A stretch of DNA of 64,000 nucleotides from a virus (IMGVR_UViG_3300028591_000073:160001-224000), one strand, 5' to 3'; numbered from the stretch's first letter, positions 12,348 to 15,973 are shown. The notes: generated from the letters alone by a model not told the origin. A program made the numbers and translations.

Positions 12348-12450
12348 ATGAAACATCTTAGATGAGAATTATGGCGGGAGTATATGATTTCATTTCAAAT
12401 TATGAGTTTGACGAAGTAACTCCAGCGTCTGCATCATCATAATGTTTCAT
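12348..12450 (-). ncRNA. Y-RNA-like scaffold copy 1
   Basis: Terminal stem plus TGATGCAG..GAGTTACTTC..ATTCTCA. Confidence 0.65.
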
Positions 12451-12461
12451 AACAACGAGAA

Positions 12462-12590
12462 GGATTGGTGAGAGTCACGTGTTCAGGTGGGGTGGCTTTA
12501 ATCCCCGAGGTCCGTCCAACATTCGGGCACAATGCCGAGATGCCGGAAATAGCAAAGCTGAAGTAACTGAACACCTGCATCACCAAATCC
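12462..12590 (-). ncRNA. Y-RNA-like scaffold copy 2
   Basis: GGATTTGGTGATGCAGGTGTTCAGTTACTTC..CTGAACAC..ACTCTCACCAATCC. Confidence 0.65.
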
Positions 12591-12604
12591 AATAATTCAT
12601 TTCA

Positions 12605-12733
12605 AATGTTGTGAGAATAATCAACAGAGTATTGTGCGTACGAGTTGTATTAGCTGCAAAATGCTGCTCTCGGTACATGGTATCGATATACGATTGATCT
12701 TTGAAGTAACTCGTGTTTCCGCATCACAACATA
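12605..12733 (-). ncRNA. Y-RNA-like scaffold copy 3
   Basis: ATGTTGTGATGCGG..GAGTTACTTC..ATTCTCACAACAT. Confidence 0.65.
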
Positions 12734-12747
12734 TTTATTTTTGTTAA

Positions 12748-12835
12748 AGGCGAGAATAACAATCAGAGTTCTGAATAATATCAGCATAAACATTGAATAG
12801 TTTAAGGAGTAACTCTAATTACTGCATCGCATCTA
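12748..12835 (-). ncRNA. Y-RNA-like scaffold copy 4 (short)
   Basis: GCGATGCAG..AGAGTTACTCC..ACTCT..ATTCTCGC. Confidence 0.55.
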
Positions 12836-12857
12836 ATCACTGGTATTTATTTGTTAA

Positions 12858-13385
12858 TTATTCTTCCTTTTTATGAAAGAATGCTTTAATGTCATCATCC
12901 GTGTAGATTTTACCAAAACCTTTTTCAATCCAGTAAAGGAGTTTCTGAATGTCAGAATTCTCCTTGGATTCAGGTTCAGAAATGTAACTTGTTAAACCAA
13001 ATGGGTCGATTTCAATCTTGAACATTCTCACAGATGCTTCTATATCATCCTTGATATCTTCATATTCAATATCTTTCAGGCATTCGATATGGAGTATCCC
13101 GGTGTCGTAGATGATAAACTCAAGATACAGGTCACATTCAGGGAGGTAGTATCTTAATCCTTTTCCAAGAGGAGATTTGTCACCGTCATACATGTGTCGT
13201 TCTACAAGATACCTGGCTTCAGACTTAATTTCCATCATACGTCTGAACATCATTGCATCATGATATGCACTGAGACAGAGCTGAGAAGTCCCAATGAACT
13301 TCTCAAGCTCCACGAGTGTACAATAATAATTTAATTTATCATCAACATCCAACTTTGTCAATTTGATAGCAGTAACGTTTTCCAT
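12858..13385 (-). CDS. hypothetical protein co-transcribed with TROVE gene
   Basis: ORF 175 aa, 12 nt after TROVE stop, GAGGGTG RBS. Confidence 0.75.
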   Translation of the reverse strand: MENVTAIKLTKLDVDDKLNYYCTLVELEKFIGTSQLCLSAYHDAMMFRRMMEIKSEARYLVERHMYDGDKSPLGKGLRYYLPECDLYLEFIIYDTGILHIECLKDIEYEDIKDDIEASVRMFKIEIDPFGLTSYISEPESKENSDIQKLLYWIEKGFGKIYTDDDIKAFFHKKEE

Positions 13386-13397
13386 ATGAATGCACCC

Positions 13398-15038
13398 TCA
13401 CTTTTTCTGCTCAAGTTCATCCCAGATATGGATATATCGTTCCATGAATTGTGTCTCTTTACCTGTCCATCCACTCAGGAATGCACAACGGTAAGCCATT
13501 TCAGGAACCAATACATTGTCATATCCAGCTGTCTGAATGGAAAAGAAGTTTACCTTTGGATTTACTTCTCGACGATATTTCTCAAGTGCTTGATATACAT
13601 TCATATTCAAACTATGTCTGCTGATACCACCATATGCCCAAGGATGAAGACGTCGTTCAAGAGTCAAGTGTCCAACTTGTAAGTCAGAATAGATGATAAT
13701 GTTATCATACTTGATTTTCTTATTCAGAATCTCTTGGAAGAATTCATCCACACCAGGTTCTGTAGAACTACCAACATCTGTGTATTGACCACCATTGATT
13801 TTGTTTGCTTGGGTCAATGCACCATTTCGTTTGGATACTTCAAACCATTTACATGTCGTACCAAACTTGACGATTTGTGCTTCTTCGGAACACATACCAG
13901 CAATGACTGCACTCAAGTTATCAATCTCAGCAATTTGAGTAGTACCGTATTCTGATGTGAAGGCATTCCATGCAGAACCACTGTTATCGGATAAGATAAC
14001 AGTCTTACCAGGAAGCTTGGGCATTTCTTTAATAGAGATATCAATACATTCTTCGAGTGCATCTAATACCCAACCCTTATAATTGATTTCTGCATTCTCC
14101 AACTGCTTGTATGCAGCATAATATCTGTATGGGAACTGCTTACCGGTTTTAACACCTTTCTTCAATCTCAGCAGATATGCTCTACATAAAGCATCATAGG
14201 TTACTTCAGAAAAGAAGTTGCGGATATTACGGAGAAGAGCCATATGTCCAAGTGAAGTTGTTTTGTAGATTTCTTCCCATGACATACCAGCACTTCTCTT
14301 CTGTTCCCATGTCACTTCATTATCTTCTGCTTCGATCGTACCAGTCTTCATGAGTTCATCAAGAACGTCGGAATGTGCATGGGTGAGACGAACGGCATTA
14401 ATCATACCGATTTCTGCGTTCTTATATTTATTAACGTCAAATCTTGTTAAATCACTGAGCTTTGATGCAAGTGAACGTTTCAAAATAGACGGAATCTTAT
14501 TCTTATTACCATCATTCAACCAAAGGTAGTATGCCAGCTGAGACATAGGCTCATCTGGACGTGCAAGTACTTTTTTCTGATATTCTGCAAACTTACCAGG
14601 ATTTGCTTTTGTCCATTCCTGACGTTTTGGATGAATGGATGCACGAACCATGATAATCTGTGGATTCAATCGCATGTAATAATCATGACGAAGTGTAACC
14701 GCCATTTTCAATGTTTCTTCGAAATCATAATCCAATGCAGCATCGATGGCTTCTTCAAATACTTCAGTAGTTGTTTTACCATCAAACTCTTTGAAGAGTC
14801 TGTCGTTGCCGAGTGTATCTGTTGTACCATACCAGCTGGTATCGACACCAAATTTACCATCCTTAATGTTAGAACGATAAAAAGATGCTTCACCAAAGAA
14901 TGAAGATGCAGCAATCATTGTCAATCTCATTAATGGATTGATAGTGAAGGATTCACCACCTTCGAAATTGATAACTGTGTTTGCATGGTATTTGTTGTAC
15001 TCTTTGAGATTCTTAATCTCTCTGCTTAATCTGCTCAT
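13398..15038 (-). CDS. TROVE-domain Ro60/Rsr-like RNA-binding protein with C-terminal vWA domain
   Basis: Motifs NFEGG, SSFFGE..FY, TWEQ, HMALLRNIRN, QFPYRYY.AY, vWA MIDAS DNSGS, IIYSDLQ, GYDN; start MSRLSR behind AAGGAGG. Confidence 0.9.
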   Translation of the reverse strand: MSRLSREIKNLKEYNKYHANTVINFEGGESFTINPLMRLTMIAASSFFGEASFYRSNIKDGKFGVDTSWYGTTDTLGNDRLFKEFDGKTTTEVFEEAIDAALDYDFEETLKMAVTLRHDYYMRLNPQIIMVRASIHPKRQEWTKANPGKFAEYQKKVLARPDEPMSQLAYYLWLNDGNKNKIPSILKRSLASKLSDLTRFDVNKYKNAEIGMINAVRLTHAHSDVLDELMKTGTIEAEDNEVTWEQKRSAGMSWEEIYKTTSLGHMALLRNIRNFFSEVTYDALCRAYLLRLKKGVKTGKQFPYRYYAAYKQLENAEINYKGWVLDALEECIDISIKEMPKLPGKTVILSDNSGSAWNAFTSEYGTTQIAEIDNLSAVIAGMCSEEAQIVKFGTTCKWFEVSKRNGALTQANKINGGQYTDVGSSTEPGVDEFFQEILNKKIKYDNIIIYSDLQVGHLTLERRLHPWAYGGISRHSLNMNVYQALEKYRREVNPKVNFFSIQTAGYDNVLVPEMAYRCAFLSGWTGKETQFMERYIHIWDELEQKK

Positions 15039-15082
15039 ACAATTTTCCTCCTTCGTTGTTAAAAAAGAAATTGATTCATATA

Positions 15083-15263
15083 AATTTAGATTGCTTGAGA
15101 ATATCAGATACGGGGTATCGGTTTTGAGTAAGTCATAACCGATAAAACACTGTGAAAGGATGTCGTTCCAATGCGCATGATCGACAAATCTATTGAGATA
15201 AAATCTTAACAAAAATATGTTCTTTATGAAGTAACCGTATCGCTGCATCAAGCAACCTAAATT
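15083..15263 (-). ncRNA. Y-RNA-like scaffold copy 5 (longest insert)
   Basis: AATTTAGGTTGCTTGATGCAGCGATACGGTTACTTC..CCGTATC..ATTCTCAAGCAATCTAAATT. Confidence 0.65.
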
Positions 15264-15270
15264 ACTGGTG

Positions 15271-15405
15271 GTAGACTGAGTATATCAAAAACAGATTAAA
15301 TGCCCGCTTAATTGTTATACAGGTATCGTGGTCGCAACCCTGTTTCGAATAACTTGATAGGTTATTCTGATCTGTAGAAGTAACTGTTTTTCTGCTTCAG
15401 TCTAC
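15271..15405 (-). ncRNA. Y-RNA-like scaffold copy 6
   Basis: GTAGACTGAAGCAGAAAAACAGTTACTTC..CTGTTTTT..TACTCAGTCTAC; hairpinned insert. Confidence 0.65.
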
Positions 15406-15481
15406 TGGTCGAATGCCCCAGAATTGAACTGGGAGTCCCCGAGACCCAAACTCGGTGCGATAACCATTACGCTAGCACTCG
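15406..15481 (-). tRNA. tRNA-Pro(TGG)
   Basis: CGAGTGC..CCGAG-TTTGGGT-CTCGG..TTCAATT..GCATTCG-ACCA. Confidence 0.88.
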
Positions 15482-15486
15482 AAAAT

Positions 15487-15625
15487 GTCTATGAGAGTAT
15501 TTGACAGAGTATAATACGTGCTCTACCGACTGAGCTAATGTCACCATCTGATGGTGACATACTGGGCTCGAACCAGTGACTACGCCGTTAACATCGGAAG
15601 TAACTCTGTCAGCCGCATCATAGAC
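15487..15625 (-). ncRNA. YrlA-like Y RNA copy 7 containing a circularly permuted tRNA domain
   Basis: Scaffold encloses T-arm ACTGG-TTCGAGC-CCAGT, loop-closed acceptor ATGTCACCA/TGGTGACAT, D-arm TAGCTCAGTCGGTAGAGC. Confidence 0.8.
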
Positions 15626-15629
15626 TAAA

Positions 15630-15711
15630 TGCCCATAGAGGGAGTCGAACCCTCAAGCCTTTCGGCACAGGTACTTGAAGCCTGTGTGTATGCCAATTTC
15701 ACCATATGGGC
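15630..15711 (-). tRNA. tRNA-Leu(CAA)
   Basis: GCCCATA..CAGGC-TTCAAGT-ACCTG, long variable arm GCCGAAAGGC, TTCGACT T-loop. Confidence 0.85.
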
Positions 15712-15715
15712 AACA

Positions 15716-15850
15716 AACATTTGTGAGGGTATAAACCAGAGAAATGCATTTCCATTTCTGCCAATGATACCAAAATGATACCATATAGGATTCGAACCTA
15801 TAGATCTTATTATTTTAAGAAGTAACTCTGATTGCTGCTTCACAAACGTT
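15716..15850 (-). ncRNA. YrlA-like Y RNA copy 8 with permuted tRNA domain
   Basis: Scaffold plus ATAGG-TTCGAAT-CCTAT, ATGGTAT/GTATCAT closed acceptor, GCA-GAAATGGAAA-TGC D-arm. Confidence 0.72.
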
Positions 15851-15853
15851 GGT

Positions 15854-15973
15854 GCATTTGTGAGAATGTTTGTTAGAGCATTGCACAACCAAATATGCAT
15901 TAACTAATGAAAAATCACAATTAATTTCGGATTCGAACCAAAGAAGTATCTCTAACATCTGCTTCACAAATGT
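15854..15973 (-). ncRNA. YrlA-like Y RNA copy 9 with degenerate permuted tRNA domain
   Basis: ACATTTGTGAAGCAG..AGATACTTC, TTTGG-TTCGAAT-CCGAA, ..ATTCTCACAAATGC. Confidence 0.65.

What the first reader, a model, noticed from the sequence alone, without database searches (positions are those of the whole stretch)
12348..15973. Phage Ro60/TROVE gene embedded in an array of nine Y-RNA-like scaffolds carrying variable payloads
Seen: nine minus-strand elements (12348-12450, 12462-12590, 12605-12733, 12748-12835, 15083-15263, 15271-15405, 15487-15625, 15716-15850, 15854-15973). They share one architecture: outer stem, TGA(T/A)GC(A/G), inner stem ending in (A/G)GTTACTTC, a variable insert, then the return strand ending near A(T/C)TCTCA. 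The stem sequences differ between copies but stay complementary, so structure plus a fixed internal loop is conserved. Four copies lie downstream and five upstream of the TROVE-vWA gene, interleaved with real tRNAs. Known: Ro60/Rsr proteins bind Y RNAs encoded next to them, usually one or two per locus, and some phages carry such pairs. Inference: this is a modular Ro60-RNP system in which one Ro-binding handle displays many different RNA domains, possibly decoys or adaptors against host tRNA-targeting or RNA-decay defences.
Basis: partly seen in the sequence, partly recalled or inferred. Interest (0 to 1): 0.92.

Follow-up and report, generated by a model that had tools for sequence, protein, structure and literature searches.

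The report
Nine Y-like RNAs around phage Ro60
A 295-kb phage carries nine small RNA genes around its Ro60 gene that share one conserved "handle" and differ in their middle parts; this is a much enlarged, undescribed version of the known Ro60/Y-RNA particle, and it also occurs unannotated in the cultured Bacillus phage G.

Summary
Nine minus-strand units sit at the stated coordinates. Each has an outer stem, a YGA|WGCRG loop, an 8-bp inner stem, a UUACUUC box, a variable insert of 32-114 nt, the return strand, an AUAUUC loop and the outer stem's 3' strand. A covariance model seeded almost wholly from other phages finds exactly these nine in the window (E 2e-12 to 4e-5).

The model also finds about 200 more units beside homologous TROVE genes. 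These lie in IMG/VR contigs, rumen MAG contigs, one metagenome contig and Bacillus phage G. Nearly all are on the TROVE strand, with 1-7 per locus. Both stems covary strongly (94-95% paired against 32-48% in slid controls).

The protein has the Ro60 fold (TROVE ring plus vWA). Three units carry permuted tRNA-like domains of the YrlA type and score below threshold on Rfam YrlA. Six carry other inserts.

Phage Ro60 with one or two Y-like RNAs is already published, as is the modular tether idea. New here are the distinct handle, the array size and the non-tRNA inserts. Ro60 binding and any counter-defence role are inferred, not shown.

This scan has noted similar Ro60-RNA arrays on other DNA before. 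One tool, the look-up of encoding contigs, was closed.

The parts
15854..15973 (-). U9: Y-like RNA with a divergent permuted tRNA-like insert (T arm directly after the box, closed hairpin, D-like hairpin with GG)
   Evidence: R1 52.7 bits, E 3.4e-9; 16/16 pairs; fold z -3.70; T arm found
15716..15850 (-). U8: Y-like RNA with a divergent permuted tRNA-like insert
   Evidence: R1 50.3 bits; 16/16 pairs; z -3.55; T arm AUAGG/UUCGAAU/CCUAU
15629..15712 (-). tRNA-Leu(caa), interleaved between U8 and U7
   Evidence: ARAGORN and Rfam tRNA 47.7 bits
15487..15625 (-). U7: canonical YrlA-type unit with T arm, 10-bp closed 'acceptor' hairpin and D arm
   Evidence: Rfam YrlA 27.7 bits, E 0.008, model 1-114; R1 46.4 bits; 81% identical ortholog in L059; member of the 21-unit insert family
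15406..15481 (-). tRNA-Pro(tgg) with encoded CCA, abutting U6 with no spacer
15271..15405 (-). U6: Y-like RNA with an 82-nt non-tRNA insert
   Evidence: R1 48.4 bits; 15/16 pairs; z -3.20
15083..15263 (-). U5: Y-like RNA with a 16-bp outer stem and a 114-nt multi-hairpin insert
   Evidence: R1 53.1 bits; ortholog in L059 keeps insert blocks while the handle stems changed on both sides
13398..15038 (-). Ro60/TROVE-vWA gene (546 aa; ATG at 15038 after a GGAGG site; MIDAS D-x-S-x-S at residues 351-355)
   Evidence: phrog_850 E 6e-47; PDB 9l5y/9kop E 1e-10; AF2 pLDDT 79.6 and Foldseek top hits all Ro60; Pfam TROVE 21.5 bits, just under the cut-off of 23
12858..13385 (-). ORF of 175 aa between TROVE and U4; no family; not found in related loci
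12746..12835 (-). U4: short Y-like RNA (37-nt A/U-rich insert; box UUACUCC)
   Evidence: R1 67.3 bits (seed member); z -2.84
12605..12733 (-). U3: Y-like RNA with a 73-nt insert and a bulge in the inner stem
   Evidence: R1 40.1 bits, E 2e-6; 12/16 pairs; fold z only -1.24
12462..12590 (-). U2: Y-like RNA with a G+C-rich 73-nt insert
   Evidence: R1 34.5 bits, E 3.6e-5; ortholog in L059 shares the insert's long hairpin base; z -3.43
12348..12450 (-). U1: short Y-like RNA (32-nt insert) with an extended, interrupted outer stem
   Evidence: R1 48.3 bits; z -3.79
12270..12343 (-). uncalled tRNA-like cloverleaf (anticodon CAT), directly after U1
   Evidence: fold; syntenic with a tRNA-Ile(tat) in L059; missed by ARAGORN and Rfam
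16014..16041 (-). terminator-like hairpin plus T run that closes the upstream gene; the RNA island starts after it
   Evidence: sequence

Best explanation
The nine units are genes for phage Y RNAs, a divergent and expanded branch of the YrlA-type Y RNA family. They are the RNA partners of the Ro60 (TROVE-vWA) protein encoded among them.

Anatomy. In each RNA the 5' and 3' ends pair into a two-helix handle. The handle is interrupted by a conserved asymmetric internal loop (5' WGCRGN against 3' RWUAUUC) and capped by an unpaired UUACUUC box. I infer that this handle is the Ro60-binding module.

Inserts. The variable insert corresponds to the effector module of known Y RNAs. Three units (U7-U9) carry a permuted tRNA-like domain. 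Two (U1, U4) have short A/U-rich loops. Four (U2, U3, U5, U6) have longer structured inserts.

Expression (inferred). The RNAs are probably cut out of one long transcript that also holds the tRNAs and the Ro60 mRNA, using the host's tRNA-end processing enzymes.

Function (inferred). One Ro60 ring can then be loaded with any of nine adaptors. Each adaptor either gates the ring or tethers it to a different partner, with host PNPase or other exoribonucleases and tRNA-binding enzymes as the precedents. This would reshape RNA decay during infection and plausibly counter a host defence.

Shown: the conserved structure, the linkage to Ro60 and the insert diversity. Inferred: binding, processing, partners and purpose.
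For: Structure and specificity:
- Model R1 finds exactly nine units in the window. The one further genome match (30.9 bits) is antisense inside an ORF and is probably chance.
- It finds 115 hits in 47 IMG/VR TROVE loci, every one on the TROVE strand. 40 of the 47 loci have at least one.
- It finds 61 hits in 72 MAG-binned loci, 58 of them on the TROVE strand.
- It finds 6 in the 75%-identical locus L059, with the same tRNA synteny, and 7 in Bacillus phage G.

Covariation:
- 94.6% and 94.1% of cells are paired, against 32-48% when partners are slid.
- All 16 pairs show changes on both sides, in two independent data sets.

Conserved unpaired bases typical of a protein site:
- G and C of the 5' loop, U, A and C plus the last C of the box, and the C of the 3' loop are identical in 115 of 115 units.

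Link to Y RNAs:
- U7 and about 10 T-arm units in other phages align with Rfam YrlA at 26-37 bits.
- The handle's YGAWG reads CGAAG in 20 of 165 distinct units. That is the published Ro60-contact motif GNCGAAN0-1G, and UUAC matches the conserved YUAY/UA (PMC4201824; bioRxiv 10.1101/312249).

Protein and neighbourhood:
- The protein has the Ro60 fold.
- TROVE is the only protein gene conserved across these loci.
- Five further array-bearing records found by DNA pattern all encode TROVE.
- Insert blocks are kept between the window and L059 while the handle stems changed with compensation.

Precedents:
- phiLo Ro60 binds two phage Y-like RNAs and host PNPase (PMC12135203).
- Yrn2, tRNA-Asp and Yrn1 are one precursor in Deinococcus (PMC4201824).
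- The Ro60-like gp130 of phage Bas63 counters the Ppl defence system (bioRxiv 10.1101/2024.10.10.617714).
Against: - No expression or binding data exist for this phage.
- All hits to Rfam YrlA are far below its gathering score (27.7 against 69).
- None of the nine window units has the exact CGAA motif.
- Six of the nine lack the tRNA-like domain that defines YrlA.
- The phage has no detectable RtcB or Rnl2-type RNA ligase gene; the Rnl1-type search was uninformative because its control failed. The bacterial RNA-repair operon context is therefore not seen.
- The neighbouring MYG1-like gene is not a conserved partner.
- Most inserts have no relatives outside close kin. Some insert diversity could therefore be drift rather than nine separate functions.
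- In two records the array lies several kb from the TROVE gene.
- Alignments A5 and A8 were fitted to the model's structure. The MAFFT-only alignment A4 gives the same answer, but its rows were chosen for pairing.
Confidence: 0.78

Rival explanations
1. The RNAs do bind the phage Ro60, but mainly as gates or sponges, or simply as RNAs that Ro60 stabilises. The inserts are largely free-drifting filler. Copy number sets dosage and does not provide nine separate functions.
For: Most inserts are sequence singletons. Blocks from U2 and U5 occur only in the close relative L059. Many related phages manage with one minimal unit of about 76 nt and an insert of about 23 nt. Gating is an accepted Y RNA role (bioRxiv 10.1101/312249).
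Against: Insert blocks are better kept than the handle stems between the window and L059. One insert type, the tRNA-like domain, is conserved across 21 units in many phages. Inserts fold stably. Identical copies would be the simplest route to higher dosage, yet no two units are alike.
Confidence: 0.2
2. The handle is recognised by something other than Ro60, such as a tRNA-processing or modifying enzyme or another phage protein. It sits near TROVE only because both live in the phage's tRNA island.
For: Units abut tRNA genes and many carry tRNA-like parts. In L100 and L104 the array is kilobases from the TROVE gene. Seven of 47 TROVE loci show no unit within the fetched flanks.
Against: Orientation agrees with TROVE in 115 of 115 and 58 of 61 hits. 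TROVE is the only conserved protein neighbour. Every array-bearing record tested encodes TROVE. The handle resembles the published Ro60-contact motifs.
Confidence: 0.08
3. The units are decaying tRNA gene remnants or genomic repeats with no function of their own.
For: Three units contain tRNA pieces. ARAGORN calls 'tRNAs' inside some units of other phages.
Against: The handle has invariant loops and covarying stems in more than 160 distinct sequences from many phage lineages. Six units have no tRNA-like sequence. The stem sequences are not repeated between copies.
Confidence: 0.02
4. The units are cis-acting leaders or attenuators that control the TROVE gene or the tRNAs.
For: U5 ends 44 nt before the TROVE start codon.
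Against: The tandem copies lie both up- and downstream of the gene, and in some phages far from it. The closed 5'-3' stems are typical of stable small RNAs. No terminator or anti-terminator alternatives were seen.
Confidence: 0.02

Closest known systems
YrlA / YrlB Y RNAs of bacteria and phages (Rfam RF02553; Chen et al. 2014, PMC4201824)
   Same: They are encoded beside a Ro60 ortholog and on the same strand. The 5' and 3' ends pair into a long stem that carries a conserved motif. A UA/YUAY element lies where the stem meets the variable part. One class has a permuted tRNA-like domain (T arm, closed acceptor-like hairpin, D arm), and others are short hairpin-type RNAs like YrlB. In Deinococcus, Y RNAs are co-transcribed with a tRNA.
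   Different: The handle is distinct. It reads YGA|WGCRG rather than GNCGAAN0-1G, and adds an invariant UUACUUC box and an AUAUUC 3' loop. Both strands of the handle are conserved. Rfam YrlA scores reach only 26-37 bits against a cut-off of 69. Nine copies occur here (1-9 in the clade), against the two Y RNAs per locus in each of the three characterised bacteria (Deinococcus has three further small RNAs encoded near rsr). Two thirds of the inserts are not tRNA-like. No RtcB or Rnl2-type ligase was found in this phage (the Rnl1-type search was uninformative).
Thermus phage phiLo Ro60 with Yrl1 and Yrl2 (PMC12135203; PDB 9KOP, 9L5Y)
   Same: A phage Ro60 with phage-encoded Y-like RNAs next to the gene. 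It is the best sequence and fold match for the window's protein. Binding of the RNAs, and a ternary complex with host PNPase, were shown by experiment.
   Different: phiLo has two RNAs, identified by a CGAA motif in a bulge. The proteins are only about 20% identical. There is no array, no UUACUUC box and no variety of inserts.
Deinococcus radiodurans Rsr-Yrn1-PNPase (RYPER) and metazoan Ro60-Y RNA particles
   Same: The working model is the same. The handle binds the outside of the Ro60 ring and gates it, and the other module tethers an effector. Native-order tRNA-like inserts in some related phage units recall Yrn1.
   Different: Those are cellular stress-response systems with 2-4 Y RNAs. Here the system is viral, has many more RNAs and has no known effector.
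Phage Bas63 gp130, a Ro60-like protein that counters the Ppl defence system (bioRxiv 10.1101/2024.10.10.617714)
   Same: A phage Ro60-like gene sits next to a tRNA cluster, and the authors suspected that some of those 'tRNAs' are Y RNAs. It gives a tested counter-defence phenotype for a phage Ro60-like protein.
   Different: The protein is too distant to appear in my tblastn search. Its RNAs were not defined. I did not test whether they carry this handle.
Class I RNAs of dictyostelid amoebae (PMC7919456)
   Same: The plan is similar: a short 5'-3' stem that covaries, a conserved unpaired motif directly after the 5' stem strand, then a variable region, encoded by many genes. The near-universal motif positions given in the paper (U3, C6, C9, A10, A11) line up with UUAC..C(A)(A) of the box.
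   Different: They are eukaryotic, 42-65 nt long, have a single stem with no internal loop, and have no known Ro60 link. The resemblance is a lead from earlier notes of this scan and was not tested for homology.

Membership tests
YrlA (Rfam RF02553; Chen et al. 2014) | Encoded within about 4 kb of a Ro60 ortholog, on the same strand | tested here: met
   All nine units lie within 1.1 kb of the TROVE gene on the minus strand. The family-wide counts are 115 of 115 and 58 of 61 hits on the TROVE strand.
YrlA (Rfam RF02553; Chen et al. 2014) | GNCGAAN0-1G motif near the 5' end | tested here: not met
   The nine units read UGAUGC, UGAAGC or CGAUGC. Exact CGAAG occurs in only 20 of 165 distinct family members. 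It is a relaxed relative of the motif, not the motif itself.
YrlA (Rfam RF02553; Chen et al. 2014) | Conserved YUAY / UA where the stem meets the variable loop | tested here: met
   UUAC of the box. U, A and C are identical in 115 of 115 units.
YrlA (Rfam RF02553; Chen et al. 2014) | tRNA-like domain in the order T arm, acceptor-like hairpin, D arm | tested here: inconclusive
   The feature is clear in U7 and weaker in U8 and U9 (T arm plus a GG-containing D-like hairpin). It is absent in U1-U6.
YrlA (Rfam RF02553; Chen et al. 2014) | Score at or above Rfam's gathering threshold (69 bits) | tested here: not met
   No unit passes. The best in the window is U7 at 27.7 bits. Relatives reach 26-37 bits.
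Y RNA (functional class) | Long stem formed by the 5' and 3' ends, holding a conserved bulged or looped helix, plus a variable second module | tested here: met
   Two covarying helices flank a conserved 6 x 7 nt internal loop, and the inserts vary.
Y RNA (functional class) | Bound and stabilised by Ro60 in vivo | not testable with these tools
   Only genomic linkage and motif resemblance are available.
Ro60 / TROVE protein | HEAT-repeat ring (TROVE) followed by a vWA domain with a MIDAS D-x-S-x-S motif | tested here: met
   The 13 best Foldseek matches to the AF2 model (pLDDT 79.6) are all Ro60 or TROVE structures: phage phiLo, Xenopus, human and Deinococcus. vWA proteins follow further down the list. 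D351, S353 and S355 are invariant in 29 homologs. phrog_850 scores E 6e-47.
Ro60 / TROVE protein | Pfam TROVE (PF05731) at or above its cut-off | tested here: not met
   The score is 21.5 bits against a cut-off of 23, and only part of the profile matches. Many homologs at over 50% identity do carry PF05731.
tRNA | Cloverleaf with an open acceptor end and an anticodon arm | tested here: not met
   ARAGORN and Rfam tRNA call none of the nine. In U7-U9 the acceptor position is a closed hairpin and the handle takes the place of the anticodon arm. Some units in other phages do hold native-order tRNA-like domains.

The most novel reading that the evidence does not exclude
The phage uses one Ro60 ring with a library of interchangeable handle-tagged RNAs as a multiplexed adaptor system. 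Each insert recruits a different host or phage factor, or decoys a different tRNA- or RNA-directed defence nuclease. The array would then be an evolvable set of counter-defence modules displayed and protected by Ro60.
Probability: 0.25. Interest if true: 0.8.

Novelty: new variant of a known kind. Interest (0 to 1): 0.6.

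Why it matters
What the effector modules of bacterial and phage Y RNAs bind, and what Ro60 particles do for a phage, are still open questions.

This clade offers a natural library: more than 160 distinct RNAs, one invariant handle and many different inserts. 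Standard annotation misses it, because Rfam YrlA fails at threshold and the phage G record shows the region as empty.

The same handle occurs seven times around gp540 of the culturable Bacillus phage G. Binding, processing, partners and phenotype can therefore all be tested in a laboratory host.

If the handle is a portable Ro60-binding tag, it would also explain how Ro60 particles diversify. It could also serve as a tool for displaying RNAs.

Tried and rejected
- **Close relatives (TROVE 76-95% identical, P0001-P0010).** A single-protein scan of IMG/VR found nothing. Only L059 and L060 (75-76%) came from the one metagenome scan.
- **DNA-level search of the phage collection.** The whole locus gave no match.
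- **A tenth copy elsewhere in the genome.** Rejected: it is antisense inside an ORF and its box is flawed.
- **MYG1-like exonuclease as the partner nuclease.** Only its N-terminus matches the family. Neither it nor ORF175 occurs in any related locus. No protein other than TROVE is a conserved neighbour.
- **RNA-repair context.** No RtcB or Rnl2 hit was found in the genome. The Rnl1 search was uninformative because its control failed.
- **Inserts as antisense regulators of phage genes.** Only chance-level matches to the phage genome were found.
- **Wider distribution of the U5 and U2 insert blocks.** Pattern scans gave 36 and 44 hits, none inside a handle.
- **First pairing script.** It mis-assigned the 3' partners of U1 and U3, which have bulged stems. 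The covariance model placed them correctly.
- **Supplementary tables of Chen 2014** (number of YrlA per phage) are not held. **The 2020 Annual Review** on bacterial Ro60 is not held either.

Full report
**Context.** The window is positions 160001-224000 of a 294,548-bp IMG/VR virus record that CheckV rates complete. It is a jumbo phage of about 37% G+C. Its TROVE homologs come mostly from rumen and gut samples. Many sit in contigs of 150-385 kb, or in MAGs labelled Ruminococcus, Oscillospiraceae or Lachnospiraceae.

- Read on the minus strand, each of the nine stretches has the same plan:
  1. an outer stem of at least 8 bp ending in YGA;
  2. an unpaired WGCRG(N);
  3. an inner stem of about 8 bp ending in RG;
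  4. an unpaired UUACUUC box (AUACUUC in U9, UUACUCC in U4);
  5. an insert of 32-114 nt;
  6. the inner stem's return strand;
  7. an unpaired (R)WUAUUC;
  8. UCR and the rest of the outer stem.
- The stem sequences differ between copies but stay complementary, with 12-16 of 16 modelled pairs per unit.
- GTTACTTC occurs 11 times in the window against 1.18 expected.
- Seven of the eight units folded are 2.8-3.8 sd more stable than shuffles. U3 is not (z -1.24).
- As an independent test I built covariance model R1 from 19 units, 18 of them from other phages. It recovers exactly the nine units (E 2e-12 to 3.6e-5) and nothing else in the window below E 0.6.
- One further hit in the whole genome is antisense inside a 483-aa ORF with an imperfect box. 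I treat it as chance.

**The protein is a Ro60.**
- The gene at 13398-15038 starts at an ATG behind a GGAGG site. The longer TTG-initiated ORF would overlap U5.
- Pfam TROVE scores only 21.5 bits against a cut-off of 23.
- phrog_850 'RNA-binding protein' matches over the full length at E 6e-47.
- The Ro60 of Thermus phage phiLo matches by sequence at E 1e-10.
- An AlphaFold2 model (pLDDT 79.6) has Ro60/TROVE structures as its 13 best Foldseek matches: phiLo, Xenopus, human and Deinococcus. vWA domains follow further down the list.
- The MIDAS residues D351, S353 and S355 are invariant in 29 homologs.

**The pairing of handle and Ro60 is general.**
- 47 non-redundant IMG/VR loci encode homologs 43-57% identical to the window's protein. 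Among them R1 gives 115 hits at E <= 1e-3. All are on the TROVE strand, and 40 loci have at least one. Copy numbers run from 1 to 7.
- In 72 MAG-binned loci it gives 61 hits, 58 of them on the TROVE strand.
- The closest reachable relative, L059 (75% identity), has six units and the same order of tRNA-Leu(caa), tRNA-Pro and tRNA-Leu(tag).
- An exact-pattern scan of IMG/VR returned 44 stretches. Five of the stretches from records not seen before proved to hold arrays of 4-7 units, and all five records encode TROVE. The 29 single pattern hits were negative with R1, as expected for chance matches.
- No protein gene other than TROVE is a conserved neighbour.
- Nine is the largest count I saw.

**Covariation.**
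- On the MAFFT alignment A4, 95.4% of cells pair, against 35-48% when partners are slid by 1-3 columns.
- On the model-fitted alignments, A5 (105 distinct rows) gives 94.6% and A8 (60 distinct rows) gives 94.1%, against 32-47%. All 16 pairs show changes on both sides, and no shuffle of 500 reaches the observed score.
- Caveats: A4's rows were chosen by a pairing screen, and A5 and A8 are fitted to the structure. The agreement of two separate sequence sets and the slid controls make the two helices secure all the same.
- By contrast, some unpaired positions are identical in 115 of 115 units: G and C of the 5' loop, U, A, C and the last C of the box, and the C of the 3' loop. That pattern is what a protein-binding site looks like.

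**Relation to known Y RNAs.**
- Chen et al. 2014 (PMC4201824) defined YrlA RNAs by four features: position next to Ro60 on the same strand; a GNCGAAN0-1G motif thought to contact Ro60; a conserved YUAY; and a permuted tRNA-like domain.
- They reported 355 candidates in 254 bacteria and 22 phages. A later paper names Bacillus phage G among those phages (PMC12135203).
- Here U7 aligns with the whole Rfam YrlA model, but at 27.7 bits against a cut-off of 69. About ten T-arm units in related phages and phage G reach 26-37 bits. No unit passes the gathering score.
- The handle's YGAWG is a relaxed CGAA(N)G. It reads exactly CGAAG in 20 of 165 distinct units and in none of the nine.
- UUAC fits YUAY, including the UA that kinks the YrlA stem in the crystal structure (bioRxiv 10.1101/312249).
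- I therefore read the family as a divergent branch of YrlA-type Y RNAs. It is not a member that the current Rfam model would accept.

**Inserts.**
- About one third of 103 distinct inserts contain a 5-bp T arm with a UUCRANY-like loop.
- 21 of them, U7 included, form one sequence family. This is the permuted T, closed-acceptor, D design.
- U8 and U9 are diverged versions of it.
- A few units in other phages hold native-order tRNA-like domains that ARAGORN or Rfam call as tRNA. Examples are L008:7668-7739 (Lys-UUU-like, 51 bits) and L051 (Asp- and Cys-like). These have only a 4-5 bp acceptor that borrows part of the box. That order recalls Deinococcus Yrn1.
- The other inserts, U1-U6 among them, are sequence singletons.
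- Between the window and L059, U2 and U5 keep blocks of insert sequence while the handle stems changed with compensation. This argues that these inserts are under selection.
- The same blocks do not occur inside handles elsewhere in IMG/VR.
- Inserts show no more than chance complementarity to the phage genome.

**Expression (inferred).**
- A terminator-like hairpin closes the upstream gene at 16014-16041, and no other terminator-like site on the minus strand follows within the island.
- Units and tRNAs are packed 0-15 nt apart. tRNA-Pro, with its encoded CCA, runs straight into U6.
- The phage's only five called tRNAs lie in this island.
- A long precursor cut by tRNA-end enzymes is the simplest reading. 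It has a precedent in the Deinococcus Yrn2/tRNA-Asp/Yrn1 precursor.

**Mechanism.**
- Published work establishes that Y RNAs are modular. The stem binds Ro60 and can gate it, and the other end tethers effectors such as PNPase.
- phiLo Ro60 binds two phage Y-like RNAs and forms a complex with host PNPase.
- The Ro60-like gp130 of phage Bas63 counters the Ppl defence system, and its authors suspected Y RNAs among the adjacent tRNA genes.
- By analogy, the nine RNAs are most likely alternative adaptors for one Ro60 ring.
- This phage shows no RtcB or Rnl2-type ligase. The Rnl1 search was uninformative because its control failed. The neighbouring MYG1-like gene is not conserved with TROVE. Any partner enzymes are therefore probably the host's.
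- Whether the nine inserts mean nine partners, or mostly dosage and gating with drifting filler, cannot be decided from sequence.

**Novelty and value.**
- Already known: phage Ro60 with Y-like RNAs, modular Y RNAs, tRNA mimicry, and co-transcription with tRNA.
- Not found in print, after eight full-text searches: this conserved handle, arrays of up to nine, and the predominance of non-tRNA inserts.
- The RefSeq record of Bacillus phage G shows nothing between gp539 and gp540, where five units lie. Two more units lie nearby. This offers a culturable test system.
- Earlier AI notes of this scan describe comparable Ro60-RNA arrays of four to eleven RNAs in other phages. They are unreviewed and were not used as evidence.
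- One of those notes raised a resemblance to Dictyostelium Class I RNAs. The general plan and five motif positions do line up, but I did not test homology.

Noticed in passing
window 12270-12343 (-): A perfect cloverleaf with a 7-bp acceptor stem, anticodon CAT and an unusual T loop (GUCGGCA) lies directly after U1. ARAGORN and Rfam tRNA both miss it. A tRNA-Ile(tat) sits at the same place in L059.
   Followed up: partly
window 16382-17278 (-): A 298-aa ORF matches MYG1_exonuc only over its first ~65 residues (E 6.5e-16). It sits about 400 nt upstream of the RNA island. No counterpart occurs in any related TROVE locus, so it is not a conserved partner.
   Followed up: partly
window 12858-13385 (-): A 175-aa ORF starts 12 nt after the TROVE stop codon. 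It has no Pfam, NCBIfam or PHROG match and is absent from L059 and all other related loci.
   Followed up: partly
L014:2335-2976 and L017:3881-4524: Full-length ROOL RNAs (Rfam RF03087, 277 and 284 bits) lie in the tRNA clusters upstream of the TROVE gene; in both loci the Y-like units lie downstream of it.
   Followed up: no
L179 (Bacillus phage G, NC_023719) 3779-3936, 5256-5935, 11361-11427: Seven handle-bearing units lie around gp540 (TROVE) and none is annotated. Five of them fill the 'empty' 1-kb gap before gp540. The same locus holds a phage tmRNA and a suppressor-like tRNA (tta).
   Followed up: partly
L144, L145 and L174, 3454-3611 (-): These are the only three model hits on the strand opposite TROVE (about 35 bits, 57% G+C). 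They may be inverted units or false positives.
   Followed up: no
L018:5168-5450 and L018:9605-9718: Two matches below threshold: group I intron (27 bits, E 0.007) and RAGATH-33 (45.5 bits against a cut-off of 120). Both lie in the RNA-rich flanks of a TROVE locus.
   Followed up: no
window 8826-10745 (-): A NAD-dependent DNA ligase with adenylation, OB, zinc-finger and BRCT domains lies just downstream of the RNA island.
   Followed up: no
G000:C1:112564-112658 (+), outside the window: A weak hit to the handle model (30.9 bits) lies antisense within a 483-aa ORF. Its box reads GUUGCUACUUG. It is probably chance.
   Followed up: yes
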